Counted from the first letter of the stretch, positions 3,192 through 14,907 are shown. The stretch: DNA of 15,053 nt from a virus (IMGVR_UViG_3300032053_000003:222392-237444); one strand, 5' to 3'. Numbers and translations are program-made. Notes: generated by a model from the letters alone, not told the origin.

Positions 3192-3599
3192 GTGAGAGTA
3201 GTTATTGTACAGGGGGGTAAGGTATTTAAGACCCTTTCTACCAACTTATCATCTATATTGACTGTTCCCCCTCTAGCTGTGTTCAGGGAGCTTCCTGTCC
3301 CATCTTTAACTAAGAGAGGGTTATTGAGGAGGAGGAAGGAATCTGTAATTAACGAGGATATAGAAGAGAAGCTGGTGCCAGCAAAAATCATTTACCCTCA
3401 TAAAGAACCTGTTGATCATGGTTCTAGGGACTACTGTATAAAGATTGTAAAACAGGCAGAGAAAGCAGGTGTCATAAAGGAGCTGGTTCTACTTATGAGT
3501 GCCTTTCGTAATATGTATCAGAGGAAGATAGTTCCAGCCAATAGAGAGGAGACTATGGTTTGTCCAAAAGGCAAACACTATTCAGAAGGATCTGAGTAA
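3192..3599 (+). CDS. hypothetical protein (start uncertain: GTG 3192 directly after, and in frame with, the endolysin TGA; alternative GTG 3374 with SD-like gaagagaag)
   Basis: ORF track only. The C-terminal half (KIVKQAEKAGVIKELVLLMSAFRNMY...) looks protein-like, while the N-terminal third is low-complexity. It overlaps the convergent gene 3553-4017 by 47 nt. Confidence 0.3.
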   Translation: MRVVIVQGGKVFKTLSTNLSSILTVPPLAVFRELPVPSLTKRGLLRRRKESVINEDIEEKLVPAKIIYPHKEPVDHGSRDYCIKIVKQAEKAGVIKELVLLMSAFRNMYQRKIVPANREETMVCPKGKHYSEGSE

Positions 3600-4017
3600 G
3601 TTGATCTGAGATCCCGAATCTCTTTTTATTGTATTCGATACTCTTTATGATGCTACCATCATTATGACGAAGGCTTGCACTTTTCCAGTCACATAGCATC
3701 TCTATTAGGTTCACTAGGTTCATGCCATTGATACCGTCCTCTTTGAAAAATTCAGGATGGTGACGGTTGTTAGCATAGTGATGATCTAGTGCAGGTTTCA
3801 TCTCAGTTAGGAATTGATTGTATTCGGTACTACCGTAGGTACTAGTGGCAAGTTTAGGTGTGTACTCCATAAAGGTTTCTAGTTCAGGAGAACATAGTTT
3901 GGATTCATCATGCTTGGTAGCTCTATCTGTAAGTTCATGAATGATCATCAGTATGCAATGCATGACATTATCTATGTGCTTCTTGGTCTCATCTATTGTT
4001 TGTTGGCTCAGACTCAT
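3553..4017 (-). CDS. HD-motif protein resembling the DUF5662 family (putative metal-dependent hydrolase)
   Basis: Strong SD on the minus strand (aaggagaacctaaaATG). Ordered motifs H-x3-H ... KHDESK ... HHYANNRHHPE. It is the only minus-strand gene between two plus-strand operons. The family assignment is from memory of the motif pattern and was not searched. Confidence 0.55.
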   Translation of the reverse strand: MSLSQQTIDETKKHIDNVMHCILMIIHELTDRATKHDESKLCSPELETFMEYTPKLATSTYGSTEYNQFLTEMKPALDHHYANNRHHPEFFKEDGINGMNLVNLIEMLCDWKSASLRHNDGSIIKSIEYNKKRFGISDQLTQILLNSVCLLDKP

Positions 4018-4108: not shown

Positions 4109-4882
4109 TTGAGAACATCATACTGGATTCCAACTGCATCTTCTCCTCAATATCGTGATCTTGGGGAAGAGAGTAAGAGCTGGTCTCGTGCAAAATATCT
4201 TGAGAGAGACGGTTTGGATGTCTATAACTTCCTCTGGAATGAGCTTTGTAACTATAGAGAGTATAGAGCCGATGGGTGTATCTATGAGGTAGGTGGTGTC
4301 TTTGTATCCCCTGGTGATATAGTAGTGGATGCAGGAGCAAACATTGGTATTTGGTCTAATGTGGCTATGTTTAAGGGAGCCAAACAGGTATATGCATTTG
4401 AACCTACCTTGAAAAGCTTTAATTGTTTGTGTGAGAATACGGATCAGTGGCTTTTTCATCCGAGTCACTATTACCCTCAAGTTATAAAGCCATTTTGCTT
4501 AGCATTGGGTGATAAGAAACAGGTTATTGAAATGCCTGTTTGGGAAAGTGGTGACTCTGTGGGATCTCGGATCGATGGGAGTATCACTTCTACTCAATAC
4601 AATACTGTAATGGTTACTACTCTGGATGATCTATTTGATATTGGATTGTTTGATCATATTGATTATCTGAAGCTTGATGTCGAGGGTGCTGAGGATCAAG
4701 TGCTCTACAGTCTTAGTAGAGAGAGGCTTGGTATGATTAACAAGATCAGTATGGAGTATCATCCTAATGCTCTCTCTGATTCTGAGGATGTCATAAAGTA
4801 TCTTATGAGTAATAAGTTTAGACACATATTCACTCTTCATATGGGTGAGGAGTGTAAAATAATAACTTTTTCAAAACTATGA
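4109..4882 (+). CDS. FkbM-family SAM-dependent methyltransferase (Methyltransf_21)
   Basis: The stretch GDIVVDAGANIGIWSNVAMFKGAKQVYAFEPTLKSFNCLCENT ... VMVTTLDDLFD ... IDYLKLDVEGAEDQVLYSL matches the FkbM/Methyltransf_21 core (VDVGANiG...afEP.p..f..L..N; tLD; id.lKiDvEGaE..vL). The start must be TTG 4109 (SD aaagaggg 6 nt upstream) because no in-frame ATG precedes the domain. A TATAAT box at 4085-4090 lies upstream. Confidence 0.8.
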   Translation: MRTSYWIPTASSPQYRDLGEESKSWSRAKYLERDGLDVYNFLWNELCNYREYRADGCIYEVGGVFVSPGDIVVDAGANIGIWSNVAMFKGAKQVYAFEPTLKSFNCLCENTDQWLFHPSHYYPQVIKPFCLALGDKKQVIEMPVWESGDSVGSRIDGSITSTQYNTVMVTTLDDLFDIGLFDHIDYLKLDVEGAEDQVLYSLSRERLGMINKISMEYHPNALSDSEDVIKYLMSNKFRHIFTLHMGEECKIITFSKL

Positions 4883-5217
4883 ATAAACAGCAGATACTTG
4901 AGGATCTCAGAAGGATGATACCTTCTTTTACTTGTATTCCAGGCTGCACTATTTGTTGTGGTCCAGTTCCTTTCTCAAAGATAGAGAGGAAGGCTGTTAA
5001 AGGTAAGAAGAGAGGATCTACAGAAGGGTTAGCTTGTGCTTATGAGTGCAAGGAAGGATGTTCTATTTATGAGCATAGACCTATCATATGTCGGTTGTTT
5101 GGTACTGTTAATGATCCTTCAATTCAATGTAAGTATGGATTTATGCCTGAGACTGTATTAAGTAAGGTACAGGCAGATAGGATAATGGAAATCTATATGA
5201 GGGAGTTGATGTATTAA
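4879..5217 (+). CDS. YkgJ/UPF0153-family CxxCxxCC putative Zn/Fe-chelating protein
   Basis: ATGA overlap with the methyltransferase stop. Motifs CIPGCTICCG ... CAYECKEGCSIYEHRPIICRLFG fit the PF03692-type pattern (CxxCxxCC ... C.iYe.RP..Cr.f). Confidence 0.7.
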   Translation: MNKQQILEDLRRMIPSFTCIPGCTICCGPVPFSKIERKAVKGKKRGSTEGLACAYECKEGCSIYEHRPIICRLFGTVNDPSIQCKYGFMPETVLSKVQADRIMEIYMRELMY

Positions 5218-5405
5218 TGGAGAGACAGGACATATTTTTAGTAGAGATTATGAATCCACCAGGTATCCTTCTCTGTGGGAGTGGGATAGGTTTTAAGTCA
5301 GTTTGTGAAAATGATGGGTGGATCTCTTATACAAATCCTGCTACTATGTTTTGGGAACTGTGTGATCCCATGTTTTGGGATATGCCTGTTGTGGGTTGTG
5401 CATAA
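5217..5405 (+). CDS. hypothetical small protein
   Basis: 62-aa ORF. ATG at 5217 overlaps the upstream TAA (TAATGG). Trp/Cys-rich. No recognisable domain. Confidence 0.4.
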   Translation: MERQDIFLVEIMNPPGILLCGSGIGFKSVCENDGWISYTNPATMFWELCDPMFWDMPVVGCA

Positions 5406-5413
5406 GGGGTTTT

Positions 5414-5623
5414 ATGATTCCTAAGAGATTCAGGCTATGCCTATTTGATAGGGATGGTTTTATAACTATCCAGAGAAGGATCTGCTTCATTTGGATAACT
5501 TTGGTTGATGAAGACAGTCAGGTTCTTAAGTTCAAGAATGTACTTCAGGCTGAGGAGTATTTGAACAAGGAAAAGAAGTTTGGAGAGATCTTCATTATAG
5601 ATTACAGGAAGGTATCCTACTGA
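5414..5623 (+). CDS. hypothetical small protein (track ORF 5375-5623; more likely starts at ATG 5414 with SD aagggg)
   Basis: 'ataaggggttttATGattcct' lies immediately after the upstream stop at 5405. 69 aa. No recognisable domain. Confidence 0.4.
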   Translation: MIPKRFRLCLFDRDGFITIQRRICFIWITLVDEDSQVLKFKNVLQAEEYLNKEKKFGEIFIIDYRKVSY

Positions 5624-7309: not shown

Positions 7310-7576
7310 ATGGAAGTTAATTTGTCTAATGGGAGGACATATCTACGAAGCCAACTTTCCATGACCTTATTCGAGAGGATTCTCAACGATCAGGGTCTCC
7401 CAGTAAACTTTGATTTGTCTGTCTATGGTGTTGTCAAGCCTCATTCAGTCAGGCTGATTGAGAAGAGGTTTGGGAGATGGTTGAGGTATCATCAGCCTTC
7501 TATGTTTGAGGAGCAATACCGAGTATGGGCCAGAGGGAGGGAACAGGTTTTGAGGGAGGCTTCTGATGGATCTTGA
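7310..7576 (+). CDS. hypothetical protein (possibly translated from a leaderless mRNA)
   Basis: 88-aa ORF. No SD. A promoter-like element lies immediately upstream. Its stop overlaps the start of the next gene (ATGGATCTTGA). Confidence 0.45.
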   Translation: MEVNLSNGRTYLRSQLSMTLFERILNDQGLPVNFDLSVYGVVKPHSVRLIEKRFGRWLRYHQPSMFEEQYRVWARGREQVLREASDGS

Positions 7577-7886
7577 AAAAGGTCAGGTGATCATTGATTT
7601 TGATTTTCAGACCAACAGCTCTTTTATGAACACCCTGGAGTTCCTGTCTGTGGTAGCCCTCAAAGAAGCCTTTGATCAGTTAGTAGCTTATGGTGACATA
7701 ATAGCAGCAGTTATTGAGGTGAAGAAGGTTAAGCCGTTGTGGGTAGTAGTGAGGAGGACTTTACCTGATCCTCCACATGCTTCTCTTTCCCAGATGGCTC
7801 TGGAGGCTAAGATTAATTTAAGGGCAAGACAGTATCTGAATGATGATACTATAATCATATCTTTTATTCATGAGGATCTTCCCTAG
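7566..7886 (+). CDS. hypothetical protein
   Basis: 106 aa. Overlaps the upstream gene by 11 nt. Last gene of the rightward block before the strand switch. Confidence 0.45.
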   Translation: MDLEKGQVIIDFDFQTNSSFMNTLEFLSVVALKEAFDQLVAYGDIIAAVIEVKKVKPLWVVVRRTLPDPPHASLSQMALEAKINLRARQYLNDDTIIISFIHEDLP

Positions 7887-7920
7887 AGGCCAAGCACTCA
7901 ATTCATAAATGCTCTAACTT

Positions 7921-8121
7921 TTATTTAGCATCCTTTACAGTGAGGTCTCGTCTTACAACAAATTTCTTACACTTGGGACATTTATACTTACCTGCTCCAC
8001 CCCACGACCATGTTGAAATCGAGTGTGTGAAGCCACAGGTGCATTTGACTCTATAGAATGACTTTCCATATGCCTGGGGTGTATAGGATAGGATGACAGC
8101 CTTCTCAGTACTCATTATCAT
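7921..8121 (-). CDS. small zinc-ribbon protein (CxC ... CxxC)
   Basis: 66 aa. VKCTCGFTHS ... YKCPKCKKF. Last gene of the leftward operon. Confidence 0.5.
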   Translation of the reverse strand: MIMSTEKAVILSYTPQAYGKSFYRVKCTCGFTHSISTWSWGGAGKYKCPKCKKFVVRRDLTVKDAK

Positions 8122-8521
8122 TTCCTTCTGGGAAAGCTTCTTTAAAGCAGAACATATGATAGTCTGTCAGACCGGATATCTCAATCAGGTGCTTGTCTTT
8201 TGCACACTTAGTAGCAGGATAGCCACTTCCAAAGTCATGGCAGAATCCAAGGTCTGTGTTTATTGGAGATAGTGACCATACCCATGCACCTGCATCTTTG
8301 TAAGCTCTGATAGCTGATTGATCTCTGGAGATCTTTGCATTGTAGATACCTCCAGGGAAGGGTTGTTTAAAGCACTCCTCATAAAGCCTAGCTAATTTCT
8401 GGGCTAGATGAGTATTAGGGTTAGGTCTTCTTAGAAGAGCCCTGATGGGTTTTCTATTAAAGGGCATGAAGCATTTGTGGAAGCCTCCTACCCCTTCTTT
8501 GTCACATCTTCTACAATACAT
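8105..8521 (-). CDS. hypothetical protein with N-terminal Cys/His knuckle (CRRCDKEGVGGFHKC)
   Basis: 138 aa, ATG start. No recognisable domain. Confidence 0.5.
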   Translation of the reverse strand: MYCRRCDKEGVGGFHKCFMPFNRKPIRALLRRPNPNTHLAQKLARLYEECFKQPFPGGIYNAKISRDQSAIRAYKDAGAWVWSLSPINTDLGFCHDFGSGYPATKCAKDKHLIEISGLTDYHMFCFKEAFPEGNDNEY

Positions 8522-8527
8522 CGTTGA

Positions 8528-9025
8528 TCATTTACCCCTGAGACATATTTGACATACCTCGTTTATGTGGCATGTGGGTTTATCGGGATCTTCTTCACAT
8601 GACTGAGGTTCCCGTTCCTGCTCTATAATATCGACATGTTGTAATTCGCCAGTTTCTATTACATTTACTCCTAGCCATCTTTTATTAGGATTGGGATCAT
8701 GAACAACAAAACCTTCTTCGTCTATGATTACGCTATGGCCTGATTCTTCAAAGGTTCTACTTGGCACTGAGGCCAGAAAAAAACCATTGATGCTTTTATA
8801 ATTACGATCTTCTTTCTTGCTGTGTCGAGGACCCATTGAGGTTCCATAAAAATCATACCCAATACCCAAGAGAAAATGTCGGTATGGTTTAAACCATTTA
8901 CCTTCACTGCCAAACAATTTGAAATGAGGCACTTGCTCCAGCTGCAGATCAAATAGAGATGCAATGCAAGCCCTTTGGCAATCGCCTTTTCCTTTTTCAA
9001 CAATGCTCTGAAATATGGGTTTCAC
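8528..9025 (-). CDS. putative papain-like (C39-like) cysteine peptidase with C-terminal Cys4 cluster
   Basis: GTG start 5 nt after SD aggagag. GDCQRACIASLF (candidate nucleophile Cys at the N-cap of a helix) ... ESGHSVIIDEEGFVVHDPNPN (His followed by Asp/Asn) has the Cys ... His ... Asp/Asn order of papain-fold peptidases. C-terminus CEEDPDKPTCHINEVCQIC. The peptidase call is tentative. Confidence 0.45.
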   Translation of the reverse strand: MKPIFQSIVEKGKGDCQRACIASLFDLQLEQVPHFKLFGSEGKWFKPYRHFLLGIGYDFYGTSMGPRHSKKEDRNYKSINGFFLASVPSRTFEESGHSVIIDEEGFVVHDPNPNKRWLGVNVIETGELQHVDIIEQEREPQSCEEDPDKPTCHINEVCQICLRGK

Positions 9026-9026
9026 T

Positions 9027-9212
9027 TTACTCTCCTACTCCATTCTTAGTCTTTTTGTCTTCTCTCCACTCTTTCAAAAATTCTGTACAGAGGTCAGCAC
9101 AATCAGAGCATATACTTACATCAGGACCCATAATAAAGAATTCAGCCTCTTCATAGTACTGTCCACAGAAAGAGCAATAGTGAGTAGGCAATCCCTGATC
9201 AGCAATGTTCAC
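9027..9212 (-). CDS. stand-alone ClpX-type C4 zinc-binding domain (zf-C4_ClpX) protein, 61 aa
   Basis: HYCSFCGQYYEEAEFFIMGPDVSICSDCADLCTEFLKEW aligns with E. coli ClpX residues ~13-50, [39 protein letters not shown]. Matches are YCSFCG, GP.V.IC..C.DLC and all four Zn Cys. GTG start overlaps the upstream TGA (GTGA). Confidence 0.8.
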   Translation of the reverse strand: MNIADQGLPTHYCSFCGQYYEEAEFFIMGPDVSICSDCADLCTEFLKEWREDKKTKNGVGE

Positions 9213-9463
9213 TTTTTCCCATTACTTGGTTTCTTTCTTATTGGACAATAATCTTTTTTAGCAGGGTCATCTGAGCAGATGCCCAAATACTCGCAGTCAC
9301 ACATTCGTTGACGAGCCGATAAAGATTCATGTTCGGTCAGTCGATTGTCAAGCTCAAAGATAACGTCAATAAAAGATTTTTCAAAATCGTTTAGTGTCCT
9401 CCCAAGGTTAACATAATCAATTAATTTCCTTAGTTTGTTTACCTTCATACTACAATCTTTCAT
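9209..9463 (-). CDS. hypothetical Cys-cluster protein (track ORF starts at TTG 9484; first ATG is at 9463, second at 9448)
   Basis: C-terminus CDCEYLGICSDDPAKKDYCP. The N-terminal region holds a tandem 15-nt duplication that creates two SD+ATG units (MKDCS-MKDCS). Confidence 0.5.
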   Translation of the reverse strand: MKDCSMKVNKLRKLIDYVNLGRTLNDFEKSFIDVIFELDNRLTEHESLSARQRMCDCEYLGICSDDPAKKDYCPIRKKPSNGKK

Positions 9464-9480
9464 ACTACAATCCTTTTCTC

Positions 9481-9768
9481 TCAATGTCTACCTCTGGAGT
9501 TCCAGGTCTTGATAGCTTCATCAGGATTGAGACCACTTGCCATGACCAAAAAATATGGATAGTGGTCTGGGTTTGTACACCTAATAGTCCAGTAACCCTT
9601 GAGGGAATCCTCTAGTACGAGTTGATCTTTTTTGCCACAGACAATACACTCTTTGGTATTCTGAGTGATGCCATAGGCTATGGGCATATCATGGTAATCA
9701 ATTGCTGACAGGGGAGCAACAAGGATCAAGAGAAGGGTTATAACAATAATGTTATATTTGAGATGCAT
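9481..9768 (-). CDS. Lar-family (restriction-alleviation-like) zinc-ribbon domain protein with N-terminal signal peptide / membrane anchor
   Basis: SD aaggagctaagATG. N-terminus NIIVITLLLILVAPLSA. C-terminal domain KECIVCGKKDQ ... GYWTIRCTNPDH ... EAIKTWNSR fits the Lar_restr_allev pattern (CPFCG ... GY.v.C..C ... EAI.aWN.R). Confidence 0.6.
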   Translation of the reverse strand: MHLKYNIIVITLLLILVAPLSAIDYHDMPIAYGITQNTKECIVCGKKDQLVLEDSLKGYWTIRCTNPDHYPYFLVMASGLNPDEAIKTWNSRGRH

Positions 9769-9769
9769 C

Positions 9770-10039
9770 TTAGCTCCTTATTTTACCATATCTGGATTTG
9801 AGAACCTTGCATTTGTTGTCTTTTATAGAGATATAGAGGATTAATCCGTGATGTTCTATATCTCCTGGGGCTATTTTGAAATCACAGAGGGTGAGTTCCC
9901 CAAAGCTCTTATCAATCGATTTACGAATATCTGTTTCGTTCAGGATTAATACAGTACTTATTTCCATCATTTTAAGTCCTTTGTGGTGTTGATATTTGAG
10001 GAACAGATATACCCACCCAACAATCCCACTAGGCACCAA
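9770..10039 (-). CDS. hypothetical small protein (start uncertain: TTG 10039 or ATGATG at 9970 with SD aaagga)
   Basis: ORF track only. The likely 66-aa form is MMEISTVLILNETDIRK.... No recognisable domain. Confidence 0.45.
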   Translation of the reverse strand: MVPSGIVGWVYLFLKYQHHKGLKMMEISTVLILNETDIRKSIDKSFGELTLCDFKIAPGDIEHHGLILYISIKDNKCKVLKSRYGKIRS

Positions 10040-10066
10040 TCCTCAGGATCTCCATTCCTCCTAACT

Positions 10067-10744
10067 CTAATCTGCCTTTATTGGATTTTTTAGATCCTTT
10101 GTCTGTGCTATTATATGCAAAATCCGCAATTCAAGATCGGCATGATCAGGAGCCTTTATTATACCACGTCCAATCAAATTAGGATGATAATGCTGAGCAA
10201 CCTCTCCCTTCATTTCATGTCTAGTTCCAAATAAATGTCTACAATTAGAAACATTTGTTGATTGTCCACAGATCATAGTTATTGCTTCTACTTTCTCCCA
10301 GGATTGAAGTTCCTTTGGAAGTTCGTATGCAAATATATCTCCCTGTCTTTTACTGCCTTCCATTCCAAAGGCTCTTTCACATGATGCTATTACATCAGGT
10401 TTTATTTCTTCATAAAAATTTCCCTTCTGCCATACTCTAAACCATTCCCACTTCACTAGTTCTACCAAAAAGGGCATTTCATCAGTCCCTCCAAACCAGG
10501 CATCGTATTGATCGTCCCCATTGTTTGCATTTTGTGTATATTCTACATTATTCAAGTACAAAAATTGGCTAAAATCATCATTGAGTTGGAGTATTCTTGC
10601 TTTCTTGTCAACAGGTAATACTATAAGTTCCTTATCTCTTACAGGAGTTTTTACCTTATCATTATATTCAATGATAGCTTGACCTGCCTTTTTTAACGGT
10701 CCAGATGATTTCTTATAATAAAGTTCAGGATATTGCTTATTCAT
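10067..10744 (-). CDS. hypothetical protein, 225 aa (largest in the leftward operon)
   Basis: SD aaaggagaaatatATG. Several conserved-looking segments (WFGGTDEMPF, KRQGDIFAYELP, ICGQSTNVSNCRHLFGTRHEMKGE). No family recognised. Confidence 0.6.
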   Translation of the reverse strand: MNKQYPELYYKKSSGPLKKAGQAIIEYNDKVKTPVRDKELIVLPVDKKARILQLNDDFSQFLYLNNVEYTQNANNGDDQYDAWFGGTDEMPFLVELVKWEWFRVWQKGNFYEEIKPDVIASCERAFGMEGSKRQGDIFAYELPKELQSWEKVEAITMICGQSTNVSNCRHLFGTRHEMKGEVAQHYHPNLIGRGIIKAPDHADLELRILHIIAQTKDLKNPIKAD

Positions 10745-10773
10745 ATATTTCTCCTTTACTTCCTAAGAATACA

Positions 10774-10795
10774 GGGGGACCCCGAAGAGTCTCCC
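10774..10795 (-). other. stable RNA hairpin with UUCG tetraloop in the intercistronic spacer of the leftward transcript
   Basis: Minus-strand RNA 5'-GGG A GACUC UUCG GGGUC CCC-3'. Eight base pairs including one G.U, an A bulge and a C(UUCG)G loop. It sits between the stop of the Gly-rich gene (10802) and the SD of gene 10744. Confidence 0.45.
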
Positions 10796-10801
10796 ATTGG
10801 C

Positions 10802-11125
10802 TTAATTCTTTTTAAGCTTCTTGTATACAAAGTTGGCACCTAATCCCACAACTACCATACCGAGGATAGCCCACCCTACAACAGGTATAGATCCAGAAAG
10901 TACAAGAGAGGTTACTCCTCCTGCCATACCTGTACCACCTGCTGCCATAGAGCCACCTCCAGCTGCTGCCAAAGCTGTAGTGGTTGTCACCGCACTAGCC
11001 CCAGCACCACCAAGGGCAGTCACTGTGGCTGCATGAGCAATGGAAACCCCCACACAAGCCCCACCAGCCAAACCTATTCCTGCTCCTGCTGTTGTAACAG
11101 CTACTTCGTCATTAGGCATATTCAT
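10802..11125 (-). CDS. Gly/Ala-rich small membrane protein with glycine-zipper-like repeats and a C-terminal TM helix
   Basis: SD gaagggag. The ATG overlaps the TGA of the upstream peptide gene (ATGA). AGAGIGLAGGACVGVSIAHAATVTALGGAGASAV...GGGSMAAGGTGMAGGVTSLVLSGSIPVVGWAILGMVVVGLGANFVYKKLKKN. Local GC is well above the window background. The + strand shadow ORF 10821-11036 is a by-product of this composition. Confidence 0.55.
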   Translation of the reverse strand: MNMPNDEVAVTTAGAGIGLAGGACVGVSIAHAATVTALGGAGASAVTTTTALAAAGGGSMAAGGTGMAGGVTSLVLSGSIPVVGWAILGMVVVGLGANFVYKKLKKN

Positions 11126-11241
11126 TTTGCTACTCCCTTCAAGACTGTGAGGATGACCCTTACGTCTCTTCCACCAATACCAAGGACTGCTGTGGTTATA
11201 GGGATAGCAAATAATGTAGTAAGCACCTTCTTAAATTTGGA
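11122..11241 (-). CDS. 40-aa hydrophobic peptide, translationally coupled to the Gly-rich membrane protein (track ORF 11122-11310 is over-extended)
   Basis: Strong SD caggaggtaacagtcATG at 11241. MSKFKKVLTTLFAIPITTAVLGIGGRDVRVILTVLKGVAK. First gene of the leftward operon. Confidence 0.5.
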   Translation of the reverse strand, partial: SKFKKVLTTLFAIPITTAVLGIGGRDVRVILTVLKGVAK

Positions 11242-11744
11242 CATGACTGTTACCTCCTGAAACGATATTTTCCAAAAGGGTAGCCATATATAAGTACCTC
11301 TGTCAACCATAAAATGAGAATATCTTAATTAATATCAGTTACTTACTTTCATATTTTGAACGAGCCTCTTTCCACATCTATTAAAATTAGCTCAAAATAG
11401 TAGACCTCGACAGTAGCCCATAGGGAAGACCTTAAGCCTGATAGGGATGGATTGCAAGTAGAAAATGTTAATCATACCTTAGATTGCTACGTTTAAGGGG
11501 GTAGTGTTTCTAGCTAACTTTTGACTAACTTAGCTTGGAAGGTTAGAAGGTGATCTAAGTTGTGTAAAAGAGGCAAGTAGAATCTAGTGTGAAACCTAAT
11601 TTGATTTTTCAAAAAGTTCATCACCCCTTATTATACTGGTATGATAAATATCACATACCATTTTGCTGTAACAAATTGATTTTAAAATTAGTTCTTGTCT
11701 TTATCTATAATGCTGAAATACAATCTTAGGTAGATACATAATAT
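11242..11744. promoter_or_regulatory. ~500-bp non-coding divergent control region between the leftward and rightward operons
   Basis: No ORF longer than 60 aa with an SD. AT-rich flanks. Contains a TATAAT box at 11706-11711 (about 35 nt before start 11745), the direct repeat ctaactt-ttga-ctaactt (11513-11530) containing TTGACT, and two copies of gcaagtagaa (11455 and 11574). Confidence 0.4.
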
Positions 11745-13118
11745 GTGGTGTTTGATCTCGGTTTTCTTAATAGATGGGGTTTTAAATTGAAGAAGCAACC
11801 AGAGAAGATGAAGACTAGTAGGGAATGTGACTATGCTTCAATCATAAGAAAGGGGAAGGGCAGGTACAAGTACGATTTCAAAGCATTGGAATACAAGGTT
11901 CAACAAAGTTACGAAAGATTCCTACAGAACCAGAAGGACTCAGAGAGTTTTCAGCAGCTATATGAGAGTGTGTTCGTTATAGCCCATGGGGTGTTAGAAA
12001 CTACCCAGCAGTGGGTTAAGAGAGAAGGACTCATAAGTGCAGATGTGGCTCACGAGTATGCAACTGGACTGATAGAGAGGATTTTGGAAGGTAGATGGAG
12101 AGCCAAGCTCAATGCAGGAGAAGACAAGTTTGGATGGGTGCCCTATATCCGATTAAATATCAGAAATACGATTCACACAAAGTTCTCTACTCAAAACCCA
12201 GAAAGGTATATTTCGTTAGACGATCTGAAAGAGATTACAAAGGAACACAGTACCGATCCTGAGGATAGCAATTATCTATTACATCCTGCCCTGATAGATG
12301 CTGAGGCTTTCCACTTTACTGAGGTGGAAACGAACAACAATCAGCTTGCTTCCCAGTGTTCAAAGTACCTAAAGCTTTTGTTCACTGAGGAACGGTACTA
12401 TTTACTCACTTCCAAGCTCCTTTCTCTCAAGGCAGAGAGCTACAATAACATACAGGATCTTGATCTACAGCTGTTTGTAAAGACTTCACTGGTGCTATTC
12501 AAACGTCTTTATGAATCCTACAATCTAAGCCAGATCAGCAGCACTAGGGTAGACAAGGTGTTTAATAGTTCTCTGTACCTTGCCTCTATCCTGTCTTCAG
12601 ATAGGGATAAGAGGTTATATGTTTCATTGGATCTGGCTAATTTATATCGGTTAGCTCTTGCTTATGGGGGTGAGACTCTGAGGGTCCCTACTTTGGAAGA
12701 GCTGGAGGAGTTGGTTAGTACAGCCAAGGTCAGTTATGAGATCCTATCTTCAAATCTCGATGACCTCAATAAAATCAGAAGAATCAGGGATAAGGTCAGG
12801 GATGACTACGATGTCTTTGTACGGTTTGATAAACTTGCAGACAATGTAAAGGGGGTTTTCAGGTATCTGTCTACTGAGATAACAGATCCTTCAACTACGG
12901 AAACCTCATTGGTTGATTCACTTCTTACATTGTCAACTAGGTCGGACCAGATCATCAATAAGATACTGGATAAGATGGAGAATACTATCAATACGGTTGA
13001 AGATAGTGACGAGCTTATCAAAGTATACAAGGAAATGGTGGAGAATCTTAATTTATCACTCAATCTTATGACTAATATTAAGAACCTGATGGAAGCTAAG
13101 TTTAAAGAAGTTAAGTAG
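11745..13118 (+). CDS. large protein with weak sigma-factor-like region 2 and region 4 motifs (candidate phage transcription factor); start is GTG 11745 or ATG 11806
   Basis: DVAHEYATGLIERI...KFGWVPYIRLNIRNTIHTKF is comparable to sigma70 region 2 (DLIQEGNIGLMKAV...KFSTYATWWIRQAITRAI). LYRLALAYGGETLRVPTLEELEEL...KIRRIRDKV is comparable to region 4.2 (LRLRFGLDDGRPRTLEEIG...RIRQIEAKALRKLR). First gene after the long control region. The sigma assignment is weak. Confidence 0.55.
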   Translation: MVFDLGFLNRWGFKLKKQPEKMKTSRECDYASIIRKGKGRYKYDFKALEYKVQQSYERFLQNQKDSESFQQLYESVFVIAHGVLETTQQWVKREGLISADVAHEYATGLIERILEGRWRAKLNAGEDKFGWVPYIRLNIRNTIHTKFSTQNPERYISLDDLKEITKEHSTDPEDSNYLLHPALIDAEAFHFTEVETNNNQLASQCSKYLKLLFTEERYYLLTSKLLSLKAESYNNIQDLDLQLFVKTSLVLFKRLYESYNLSQISSTRVDKVFNSSLYLASILSSDRDKRLYVSLDLANLYRLALAYGGETLRVPTLEELEELVSTAKVSYEILSSNLDDLNKIRRIRDKVRDDYDVFVRFDKLADNVKGVFRYLSTEITDPSTTETSLVDSLLTLSTRSDQIINKILDKMENTINTVEDSDELIKVYKEMVENLNLSLNLMTNIKNLMEAKFKEVK

Positions 13119-14676: not shown

Positions 14677-14907
14677 ATGAATACTACTCCCATGAACATA
14701 GATCCGAAGATTCGGAAGGCTGTAAAGAAGCTCTCTAAAGAGGAGGCATCTTTTCTCCTGTCTGATATTGAGGGTTACAAAGAGCCTTTAGTTGATATCA
14801 ACCAGTTCATAGAGGACCCTGAATATTTGGGTGGTATCCTGAAGGATGAGAACGGTAAGACCAAGCTCATCCAGGTTCGTGGTGCTCTTCTTGAGATGAT
14901 TAAGTGA
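14677..14907 (+). CDS. hypothetical small protein; C-terminal tail paralog of 13724-14299
   Basis: ATG directly after the upstream TAA. 76 aa ending ...GKTKLIQVRGALLEMIK. Confidence 0.55.
   Translation: MNTTPMNIDPKIRKAVKKLSKEEASFLLSDIEGYKEPLVDINQFIEDPEYLGGILKDENGKTKLIQVRGALLEMIK

What the first reader, a model, noticed from the sequence alone, without database searches (positions are those of the whole stretch)
7921..11241. Leftward operon of ten small zinc-binding or membrane proteins as a probable host-takeover or anti-defence island
All ten genes read away from the ~500-bp control region. Most are under 170 aa. Many are Cys-cluster or Zn-ribbon proteins: a ClpX zinc-binding domain, a Lar-family restriction-alleviation-type ribbon, a CxC/CxxC ribbon, a Cys peptidase with a Cys4 tail, and a CDC...C...C protein. 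Several use GTG or TTG starts overlapping the upstream stop. This matches the architecture of early-gene accessory islands where anti-restriction and other anti-defence factors cluster. None of the products is a textbook anti-defence protein, so new functions are plausible.
Basis: inference. Interest (0 to 1): 0.6.

Follow-up and report, generated by a model that had tools for sequence, protein, structure and literature searches.

The report
Variable accessory-gene cassette of a jumbo phage
The ten small leftward genes are real and lie in a spot of a roughly 230-kb T4-like phage genome where related phages carry quite different genes, so this is an ordinary phage accessory-gene hotspot whose anti-defence role is still only a guess.

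Summary
Ten tightly packed minus-strand ORFs (7921-11244, 97% coding) read away from a 500-bp spacer. They are rich in cysteine (3.4% against 1.8% in the flanking genes, p=0.0016).

The window is part of a 230,776-bp metagenomic contig. A relative that shares the locus carries T4-type capsid and portal genes.

In three related lineages both flanks are conserved (up to 87% protein identity), but the block between them is replaced. Each relative shares at most one of the ten genes at this locus. g2, g3, g6 and g8 travel independently. I found no homolog of the other six in any fetched locus.

Gene by gene:
- g4 is a stand-alone ClpX zinc-binding domain.
- g3 is a C39-like papain-fold cysteine peptidase with invariant Gln-Cys-His-Asp. 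Its Cys4 tail is unique to this copy.
- g6 matches Lar only below threshold, and it carries a conserved export or anchor segment, which argues against cytoplasmic restriction alleviation.
- g8 belongs to a family of at least 425 clusters with no Pfam or PHROG match and no structural match in PDB or BFVD.

No product matches a known anti-defence protein. Early timing and operon status are inferred. Verdict: a new member of a known kind, a phage accessory or hyperplastic region.

The parts
7566..7886 (+). Left conserved flank: last plus-strand gene (106 aa), convergent with g1
   Evidence: 57% identical to L015 3042-3293, collinear with p5623-p7310. DNA similarity to L015 ends at about 7765.
7921..8121 (-). 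g1, 66 aa (64 aa if it starts at the ATG at 8115): CxC...CxxC putative zinc ribbon
   Evidence: Cysteines at 27, 29, 48 and 51. Only sub-threshold Zn_ribbon hits, E about 0.02. No homolog in any fetched locus.
8105..8521 (-). g2, 138 aa: Cys/His-rich protein of unknown family (N-terminal CxxC-x8-HxC)
   Evidence: 69% identical (tblastn) to a 133-aa gene in the leftward block of relative L014. No Pfam, PHROG or PDB sequence hit.
8528..9025 (-). g3, 165 aa: stand-alone C39-like papain-fold cysteine peptidase with a Cys4 tail found only in this copy
9027..9212 (-). g4, 61 aa: stand-alone ClpX-type C4 zinc-binding domain
   Evidence: PF06689 at 8.7e-12, 45.2 bits against a cut-off of 27. TIGR00382 positions 8-54. 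E. coli ClpX ZBD structures 1OVX and 2DS5 at E 3e-9. GTG start overlaps g5's stop.
9209..9484 (-). g5, 91 aa from the TTG (84 aa from the ATG at 9463): borderline helix-turn-helix plus a C-terminal CxC-x5-C-x9-C cluster
   Evidence: HTH_Tnp_Tc3_1 at 3.5e-4, 20.8 bits against a cut-off of 21.1. No real homolog in the metagenome scan. A 15-nt tandem duplication at 9444-9473 creates MKDCS-MKDCS.
9481..9768 (-). g6, 95 aa: exported or membrane-anchored CxxC...C...H protein, a distant Lar-like ribbon
   Evidence: Homologs in L015, L016, L018 (53-55%) and L019 (41%) by tblastn. In their alignment C41, C44, C64 and H69 are invariant and all five have an N-terminal hydrophobic segment. Maximum hydropathy (19-residue window) 2.40 at residues 7-25. 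All 5 members hit PF14354 below threshold.
9770..10039 (-). g7, 89 aa from the TTG (66 aa from the ATG at 9970): weakest gene call
   Evidence: Gene callers disagree: 89, 88, 66 aa or no call. No homolog. Codon-frame score -0.07. AGGAGG lies upstream of the TTG.
10067..10744 (-). g8, 225 aa: member of a large uncharacterised family, a putative enzyme with invariant RQGD, H176, H201 and Q214
10802..11125 (-). g9, 107 aa: Gly/Ala-rich protein with a C-terminal transmembrane helix and a KKLKK tail
   Evidence: 40% Gly plus Ala; maximum hydropathy (19-residue window) 2.12 at residues 75-93. A protein of similar build, but not a proven homolog, occurs in L015 and L016.
11122..11244 (-). g10, 40 aa: small single-pass membrane peptide, first gene of the block
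   Evidence: AGGAGG 7 nt upstream of the ATG at 11244. Maximum hydropathy (19-residue window) 1.79. ATGA overlap with g9. No homolog found.
11245..11619 (.). Distal part of the spacer, which belongs to the variable cassette and presumably carries the leftward promoter
   Evidence: Not alignable with relatives. No Rfam or tRNA match and no excess RNA folding, z 0.99 and 0.45. No canonical sigma-70 match on the minus strand here.
11620..11744 (+). Proximal, conserved part of the spacer with a sigma-70-like promoter for the rightward 457-aa gene
   Evidence: DNA similarity to L015, L016 and L018 starts at 11620-11660. Conserved TTGTCT-18-TACAAT at 11695-11724.
11745..13118 (+). Right conserved flank: 457-aa gene of unknown function, used as the synteny anchor
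   Evidence: 16 homologs besides the window's own sequence, at 49-79% identity. Present next to a divergent, variable leftward block in L014-L020.

Best explanation
The block is a hypervariable accessory-gene cassette. It is the equivalent of a T4-type hyperplastic region, or of an 'accessory region' in the sense of Silas et al. The genome is an uncultured phage of about 230 kb whose relatives carry T4-type capsid and portal genes.

The cassette runs from about 7766 to about 11619. It sits between a conserved left flank (ending at 7886) and a conserved 457-aa gene with its own conserved promoter (from about 11620). It brings its own upstream 375 bp.

The ten genes are packed with 1-6-nt gaps or 4-17-nt overlaps. 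They are therefore most likely read from one leftward transcript with translational coupling (inferred). They do not form one system, because each gene that has homologs is found alone in other phages.

Inferred working model: the products act singly on the host soon after infection.
- g4, a free ClpX N-domain, acts as a decoy. It would titrate adaptors or substrates that dock on the ClpX zinc-binding domain, or pair with host ClpX N-domains, and so change ClpXP proteolysis.
- g3 is an active Cys-His peptidase that cuts a host or phage target.
- g6, g9 and g10 go to the envelope, where they could act in superinfection exclusion, receptor masking or lysis timing.
- g5 is a small DNA-binding regulator.
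- g8 is a metal-dependent enzyme of unknown reaction.
For: Shown:
- The window is identical to part of a 230,776-bp contig.
- Relatives that share the anchor gene carry Gp23 and Portal_T4.
- The right flank is conserved in all relatives, and the left flank is collinear in L015. Of the ten genes, L014 shares only g2, and L015, L016, L018 and L019 share only g6.
- L014 has 11 other leftward genes, L019 has about 17, and L015 has Band_7 and 632-aa genes.
- DNA breakpoints lie at about 7765 and at 11620-11660.
- The g3 homolog of the L014 genome lies 136 kb away in the same contig.
- g8 homologs sit after a DNA polymerase/ThyX module or inside other arrays of small genes.
- Codon usage of the ten genes differs from the flanks: frame score 0.045 against 0.237, p=4e-5; GC3 0.356 against 0.425.
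- Stand-alone ZBD-like ORFs recur in 29 GenBank phage records.
- A g3 relative in phage YerA41 sits among small genes with annotated sigma-70 promoters.

From the literature:
- The ZBD is the docking site for SspB, RssB and lambda O (PMC7804408).
- Hyperplastic regions in T4-like phages are described in PMC4122927.
- Accessory regions as counter-defence hotspots are described in bioRxiv 10.1101/2023.04.06.535777.
Against: - There is no transcript or timing data.
- No convincing leftward sigma-70 promoter lies in 11245-11620.
- No PeSL-like promoter/stem-loop repeats lie between the genes, so the shuffling mechanism known from T4-likes is not evident here.
- Five to six of the ten genes have no homolog at all, and g7 may not be a gene.
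- Low codon scores could also mean that some calls are wrong.
- All functional assignments beyond fold or domain are inference.
Confidence: 0.75

Rival explanations
1. This is a dedicated anti-defence island: one or more products directly inhibit host immune systems such as R-M, BREX or CBASS.
For: The locus has the architecture of accessory regions, which are reported to be enriched in counter-defence genes (10.1101/2023.04.06.535777). It is hypervariable. It holds small Cys-rich proteins. g6 is weakly Lar-like in all five family members.
Against: No product matches a characterised anti-defence protein. The Lar match is below Pfam's cut-off. g6 has a conserved export or anchor segment. No dedicated anti-defence library was available. 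Accessory regions also carry many genes with other roles.
Confidence: 0.25
2. This is an envelope and superinfection-exclusion module. The main selected function is to alter the cell surface or membrane through g6, g9 and g10, so as to block competing phages or tune lysis. The cytoplasmic genes are passengers.
For: Three of the ten products have a strong hydrophobic segment. g6 is the gene most often retained at this locus in relatives. Relatives carry small transmembrane or Gly/Ala-rich membrane proteins and a Band_7 protein at the same spot. By analogy, T4 Imm and Sp are small early membrane proteins (own knowledge).
Against: There is no homology to known exclusion proteins. Seven of the ten products are cytoplasmic. 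g9 and g10 have no homologs.
Confidence: 0.2
3. This is largely neutral, transient cargo: horizontally acquired ORFs, some decaying, that persist because the site tolerates insertions. There is little or no function.
For: Codon usage is atypical. Five to six genes are ORFans. g7's start is ambiguous. There is a tandem duplication at the g5 start.
Against: The block is 97% coding with intact frames and ribosome-binding sites. g2, g3, g6 and g8 are conserved at 41-69% identity with invariant catalytic or ligand residues, which implies purifying selection.
Confidence: 0.15

Closest known systems
Hyperplastic regions (HPRs) of T4-like myoviruses (Comeau, Arbiol & Krisch 2014, PMC4122927; Arbiol et al. 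2010, PMC2839356)
   Same: The phage lineage is T4-like. A cluster of small genes, mostly of unknown function, is replaced between blocks of conserved genes. Individual genes are swapped one at a time.
   Different: No PeSL (early promoter plus stem-loop) motifs separate the genes. Junctions are -17 to 57 nt. The block looks like one compact unit with a private 375-bp upstream region.
Phage accessory regions (ARs) with counter-defence accessory genes (Silas et al., bioRxiv 10.1101/2023.04.06.535777)
   Same: The locus meets the operational definition: variable genes between conserved flanking genes in related phage genomes.
   Different: Those ARs were defined in cultured enterobacteriophages, and some of their genes were shown to counter defences. 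Here no gene matches any of them and nothing has been tested.
ClpX N-terminal zinc-binding domain (PF06689; PDB 1OVX, 2DS5-2DS8)
   Same: g4 aligns over the whole domain with all four Cys ligands and the YCSFCG and DLC motifs.
   Different: g4 has no AAA+ module. It is a 61-aa stand-alone protein, like unstudied small ORFs in Cr30, P88 and Pseudomonas phages.
C39 double-glycine peptidase domains of ABC bacteriocin exporters (PCAT1 8VP3, ComA 5XE8, 6MPZ)
   Different: There is no sequence-level Pfam match. g3 is not fused to a transporter and has no signal sequence. It is a phage-borne 135-165-aa stand-alone form (phrog_5845; YerA41 gp021).
Lar / Ral-type restriction alleviation proteins (PF14354, phrog_599)
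   Same: g6 and its four relatives give full-length but weak matches to the Lar zinc-ribbon model.
   Different: The scores are below the gathering cut-off. The ligand set is CxxC...C...H. All five have a conserved N-terminal export or anchor segment.

Membership tests
Phage accessory region / T4-type hyperplastic region | Gene content differs between related genomes while the flanking genes are conserved and syntenic | tested here: met
   The right flank is 53-87% identical in L014-L020. The left flank is collinear in L015. At most one of the ten genes is shared per relative at the locus. DNA breakpoints lie at about 7765 and 11620-11660.
Phage accessory region / T4-type hyperplastic region | Small genes, mostly without known function, individually mobile | tested here: met
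   Median length is 93 aa. g2, g3, g6 and g8 are each found alone in other contexts. The other six have no homolog in the fetched loci, and a metagenome scan for g5 found none.
Phage accessory region / T4-type hyperplastic region | PeSL promoter/stem-loop cassettes at module junctions (T4-like HPRs) | tested here: not met
   Junctions are -17 to 57 nt. There is no repeated intergenic motif. The only hairpin is a weak UUCG one at 10772-10784.
Phage accessory region / T4-type hyperplastic region | Early transcription from host-type promoters | not testable with these tools
   No expression data exist. The consensus scan finds no good leftward promoter in 11245-11620.
ClpX C4 zinc finger (PF06689), g4 | Profile match above the curated cut-off, with the CxxC...CxxC ligands | tested here: met
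   45.2 bits against 27. Cysteines at 13, 16, 35 and 38. 1OVX at E 2.9e-9.
ClpX unfoldase (TIGR00382), g4 | AAA+ ATPase module following the zinc domain | tested here: not met
   g4 is 61 aa in total. It scores 36.3 bits against a cut-off of 370.75 and matches model positions 8-54 only.
C39-like papain-fold cysteine peptidase (clan CA), g3 | Papain-like fold with catalytic Cys and His (plus Gln and Asp) | tested here: met
Peptidase_C39 (Pfam family proper), g3 | Sequence-profile match; association with an ABC exporter and double-glycine leader substrates | tested here: not met
   No Pfam hit for any of the 33 members. The gene is stand-alone with no transporter neighbour.
Lar restriction alleviation (PF14354), g6 | Profile match above the curated cut-off | tested here: not met
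   17.9 bits against 28.6. All 5 family members hit, but the best E-value is 0.0037.
Lar restriction alleviation (PF14354), g6 | Cytoplasmic protein that modulates a type I R-M enzyme | tested here: inconclusive
   A conserved N-terminal hydrophobic segment (maximum hydropathy 2.40 over 19 residues; signal-peptide-like SYA-A in relatives) predicts export or anchoring. Activity is not testable here.
Known anti-defence proteins | Homology to a characterised inhibitor of a defence system | tested here: not met
   Pfam, PHROGs, NCBIfam and PADLOC give nothing beyond the weak Lar hit. No dedicated anti-defence library was available.

The most novel reading that the evidence does not exclude
Two of the genes may be first handles on unstudied biology.

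(a) g8 may found a large family (at least 425 clusters at 50% identity). It has a confidently predicted structure with no match in PDB or BFVD. It also has an invariant Arg-Gln-Gly-Asp/His/His/Gln constellation. That would make it a new metal-dependent enzyme used by phages, and apparently by some small-genome bacteria.

(b) The free ClpX zinc-binding domain g4 recurs in many unrelated phages. It may be a general phage decoy that blinds host ClpXP to adaptor-delivered substrates. If so, it would be a new class of host-takeover or anti-defence factor.
Probability: 0.25. Interest if true: 0.65.

Novelty: new member of a known kind. Interest (0 to 1): 0.4.

Why it matters
Hotspots like this one are where phages keep fast-evolving host-manipulation genes. 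This locus is a clean, well-bounded example in an uncultured T4-like jumbo phage lineage, with at least four alternative cassettes already in hand. It offers a short list of testable candidates: a free ClpX N-domain, a stand-alone C39-like peptidase, an exported Lar-like ribbon, and a widespread family with no known structural relative. On its own it does not change what is known about phage genome organisation.

Tried and rejected
- Megablast and tblastn of the region, g8 and the 457-aa gene against GenBank phages found nothing.
- IMG/VR scans with g8, the 457-aa gene and the g8 alignment found no relatives. The wider g8 alignment was too divergent to scan with.
- The eight contigs that carry g8 exactly are 99.97-100% identical to the window, so they give no microdiversity information.
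- The afdb50 fold library was unavailable.
- PDB sequence-profile searches for g2, g3, g5, g6 and g8 gave only chance-level hits.
- PADLOC gave one hit, g9 against PDC-M09A at 14.7 bits. I rejected it as compositional.
- I looked for an RNA element in the spacer. There is no Rfam family, no tRNA, and folding z-scores are 0.99 and 0.45.
- The T4 late-promoter motif TATAAATA occurs once in the window, which is the chance level, and not in the block.
- The metagenome scan for g5 returned only 18-residue matches, so I treat g5 as an ORFan.
- g9 against the Gly/Ala-rich membrane protein of L015 shows similarity only without composition correction. I treat it as an analogue, not a homolog.
- I considered that g3 might process the Gly-rich g9. 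I dropped the idea because g3 homologs occur without any g9-like neighbour.


Full report
**1. What is there**

The window contains ten consecutive minus-strand ORFs between 7921 and 11244. I call them g1 to g10, numbered from left to right, so g10 is the first one transcribed.

| Gene | Coordinates | Length |
|---|---|---|
| g1 | 7921-8121 | 66 aa |
| g2 | 8105-8521 | 138 aa |
| g3 | 8528-9025 | 165 aa |
| g4 | 9027-9212 | 61 aa |
| g5 | 9209-9484 | 91 aa |
| g6 | 9481-9768 | 95 aa |
| g7 | 9770-10039 | 89 aa |
| g8 | 10067-10744 | 225 aa |
| g9 | 10802-11125 | 107 aa |
| g10 | 11122-11244 | 40 aa |

- The block is 97% coding. Junctions are -17, 6, 1, -4, -4, 1, 27, 57 and -4 nt.
- g10 starts at the ATG at 11244, seven bases after an AGGAGG.
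- The spacer up to the next gene (GTG at 11745) is exactly 500 bp.
- Cysteine makes up 3.4% of the ten products against 1.8% of the other 24 window ORFs (Fisher p=0.0016).
- The start-codon remark is only partly right:
  - g4's GTG overlaps g5's stop.
  - g5's TTG overlaps g6's stop, but an ATG 21 nt downstream is what other gene callers chose.
  - g3's GTG is confirmed by homolog N-termini. It lies 1 nt after g4's stop and does not overlap it.
  - g7's TTG does not overlap anything.
- g7 is the least secure gene. Public gene calls on identical DNA give 89, 88, 66 aa or nothing. It has no homolog, and its codon-frame score is negative.

**2. Where it comes from**

- g8 is encoded on eight public contigs that are 99.97-100% identical to the window. 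The longest is ENA ERZ27247916 k141_351042, 230,776 bp.
- Nothing similar is in GenBank phages or IMG/VR.
- A relative that shares the neighbouring 457-aa gene (JGI Ga0501914_00005, 246,837 bp) also carries a T4 Gp23-type major capsid gene. A Portal_T4-like gene lies in L019 and L020.
- The flanks of the window encode an SLT transglycosylase, a peptidoglycan-binding protein with endolysin-family matches, and an FkbM methyltransferase.
- The source is therefore an uncultured T4-like phage of jumbo size.

**3. The decisive test: is the locus variable?**

I used the adjacent 457-aa gene as an anchor. It has 16 homologs besides the window's own sequence, at 49-79% identity. I fetched their neighbourhoods and searched all 34 window proteins against them.

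- Right flank. The anchor, p13206, p13724 and the start of the MJ0330_N gene are present in every relative, at 53-87% identity.
- Left flank. p5623 to p7566 are collinear in L015.
- Between the flanks, every lineage has something different:

| Relative | Content at the locus | Window genes shared |
|---|---|---|
| L014 | 11 leftward genes | g2 only (69%) |
| L015, L016, L018 | Band_7, 216-aa, 342-aa, 632-aa and other genes | g6 only (53-55%) |
| L019 | about 17 small leftward genes | g6 only (41%) |

- g1, g4, g5, g7, g9 and g10 have no counterpart in any fetched locus.
- At the DNA level, similarity to L015 stops at about 7765. It resumes at 11620-11660 in L015, L016 and L018.
- The cassette is therefore about 7766-11619. 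It includes the distal 375 bp of the 'control region'. Only the proximal 125 bp or so is conserved with the rightward gene, including a TTGTCT-18-TACAAT promoter-like site at 11695-11724.
- The block's codon usage also differs from the flanks. The in-frame score is 0.045 against a leave-one-out mean of 0.237 for the flanks (Mann-Whitney p=4e-5). GC3 is 0.356 against 0.425.
- Small Cys-rich proteins and small membrane proteins recur in the relatives' cassettes.

**4. The genes travel singly**

- The g3 homolog of the L014 genome (67% identical) lies 136 kb away on the same contig, in a plus-strand array upstream of the prohead protease and capsid genes. The same holds in L011.
- g8 homologs lie after a DNA polymerase A/ThyX/DUF3987 module (L009). 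They also lie inside other arrays of small genes, and in a cellular-looking contig with ComEC, NDK and BioB-like neighbours (L024).
- So the block is a mosaic of independent one-gene modules. It is not a conserved multi-component system.

**5. What the products are**

- g4 is a complete ClpX-type C4 zinc-binding domain and nothing else.
  - PF06689 scores 45.2 bits against a cut-off of 27.
  - The E. coli ClpX ZBD structures 1OVX and 2DS5 match at E 3e-9, with the YCSFCG and DLC motifs and all four cysteines.
  - Similar stand-alone ORFs occur in 29 GenBank phage records, including T4-like Caulobacter phage Cr30 and coliphage P88.
- g3 is a papain-fold cysteine peptidase.
  - Gln6, Cys16, His97 and Asp110 are invariant in 33 homologs.
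  - The AF2 model has pLDDT 90.4.
  - No Pfam model matches any member, but phrog_5845 does.
  - A 34%-identical gene in Yersinia phage YerA41 is annotated as a C39 peptidase. It sits among small genes with annotated sigma-70 promoters.
  - The Cys4 tail is confined to this copy and is modelled with low confidence.
- g6 and its four relatives share an N-terminal hydrophobic segment. It looks like a signal peptide ending in SYA-A in the relatives.
  - They also share invariant C41, C44, C64 and H69.
  - All five match the Lar model over its full length, but below threshold (best 17.9 bits against 28.6).
  - An exported or anchored protein is an unlikely modulator of a cytoplasmic restriction enzyme.
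- g5 has a borderline helix-turn-helix match (20.8 against 21.1 bits) and a C-terminal Cys cluster.
- g9 and g10 are membrane proteins.
- g1 has a CxC...CxxC ribbon motif only.
- g2 is Cys/His-rich and matches no family.
- g8 belongs to a family of 425 clusters at 50% identity.
  - Its invariant residues include F84, G86, R133-Q134-G135-D136, H176, H201 and Q214.
  - Its model is confident (pLDDT 82.8, pTM 0.79).

**6. How it most likely works**

Shown: this is a variable cassette between conserved flanks, built of independently mobile genes under purifying selection.

Inferred:
- One leftward transcript starts in the cassette's own 375-bp upstream region. Translation of neighbouring genes is coupled at the ATGA and GTGA overlaps.
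- The proteins act one by one on the host.
- The most concrete proposal is for g4. The ClpX ZBD is where SspB and RssB dock, and it is required for lambda O degradation (PMC7804408). A free copy should therefore compete for those partners, or pair with host ZBDs, and change what ClpXP degrades.
- g3 should be an active protease.
- g6, g9 and g10 should act at the envelope.
- I found no convincing sigma-70-type leftward promoter. There is no RNA element in the spacer. There is no T4-type late promoter in the block.

**7. Comparison with what is known**

- The locus fits the hyperplastic regions of T4-like phages (PMC4122927, PMC2839356).
- It also fits the operational definition of accessory regions (10.1101/2023.04.06.535777).
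- It differs from classical T4 HPRs in lacking PeSL promoter/stem-loop junctions.

**8. Verdict**

A hypervariable accessory island is confirmed. An anti-defence function is untested, and its only specific clue, the Lar match, is weakened.
- Novelty: a new member of a known kind.
- Interest is moderate. It rests mainly on g8, which has no known structural relative, and on the recurrent free ClpX zinc-binding domain.

Noticed in passing
window 10067-10744 (g8); L024 1683-2333 and 5307-5957; L021 384-1139: The g8 family (at least 425 clusters at 50% identity) has no Pfam or PHROG match and no structural match in PDB or BFVD. It also occurs in a cellular-looking contig next to ComEC, NDK, PvlArgDC and radical-SAM genes, where a second ORF of the same length (216 aa) lies nearby; I did not compare that ORF with g8. 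It also occurs in a Candidatus Sungiibacteriota MAG contig. So the family may not be phage-specific.
   Followed up: partly
window 14677-14907, and L001 5280-5457: The 76-aa ORF at the right end of the window resembles the N-terminus of the MJ0330_N gene. It is 81% identical in protein to the start of the 590-aa gene in L015. It is 85% identical in DNA to the start of this phage's own 775-aa intein-containing MJ0330_N gene, which lies one 122-aa ORF further on. This looks like an N-terminal duplication, or a gene split by an inserted element.
   Followed up: no
window 9444-9473: A perfect-register 15-nt tandem duplication (93% identical) at the 5' end of g5 produces the repeated peptide MKDCS-MKDCS. 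It also creates two alternative ATG starts.
   Followed up: no
window 11620-11744: The roughly 125 bp upstream of the 457-aa gene are conserved across lineages whose proteins are 64-79% identical. They include TTGTCT-18-TACAAT and a GGTATG-N10-CATACC inverted repeat at about 11639-11660. This is a likely conserved promoter and operator for a gene of unknown function. The true start of that gene may lie downstream of 11745, since relatives are 12-19 aa shorter.
   Followed up: partly
window 3553-4017 (minus strand): A lone minus-strand DUF5662 gene (154 aa) sits inside the long plus-strand array. Its 3' end overlaps the plus-strand ORF 3192-3599 by 47 nt.
   Followed up: no
window 4879-5623: Cys-rich small proteins also occur outside the block: p4879 has 9 Cys and a weak CxxCxxCC match, p5217 has 4 Cys in 62 aa, and p5375 has 5 Cys in 82 aa. 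These are conserved in relatives L014 and L019, so Cys-richness alone does not mark the variable cassette.
   Followed up: partly
L001 1599-2090 and 3143-5470; L015 12922-13362; L014 12668-15697 and 17505-21053: Just right of the window, this phage lineage carries an ART-PolyVal ADP-ribosyltransferase-like gene and several intein-containing large genes. One is a portal-like gene with an intein, in L019 and L020.
   Followed up: no
window 10772-10784 (minus strand): A 5-bp stem with a UUCG tetraloop, followed by a U-rich stretch, lies in the 57-nt gap between g9 and g8. It might be an attenuator or a stability element. It is no more than chance by the shuffle control.
   Followed up: no
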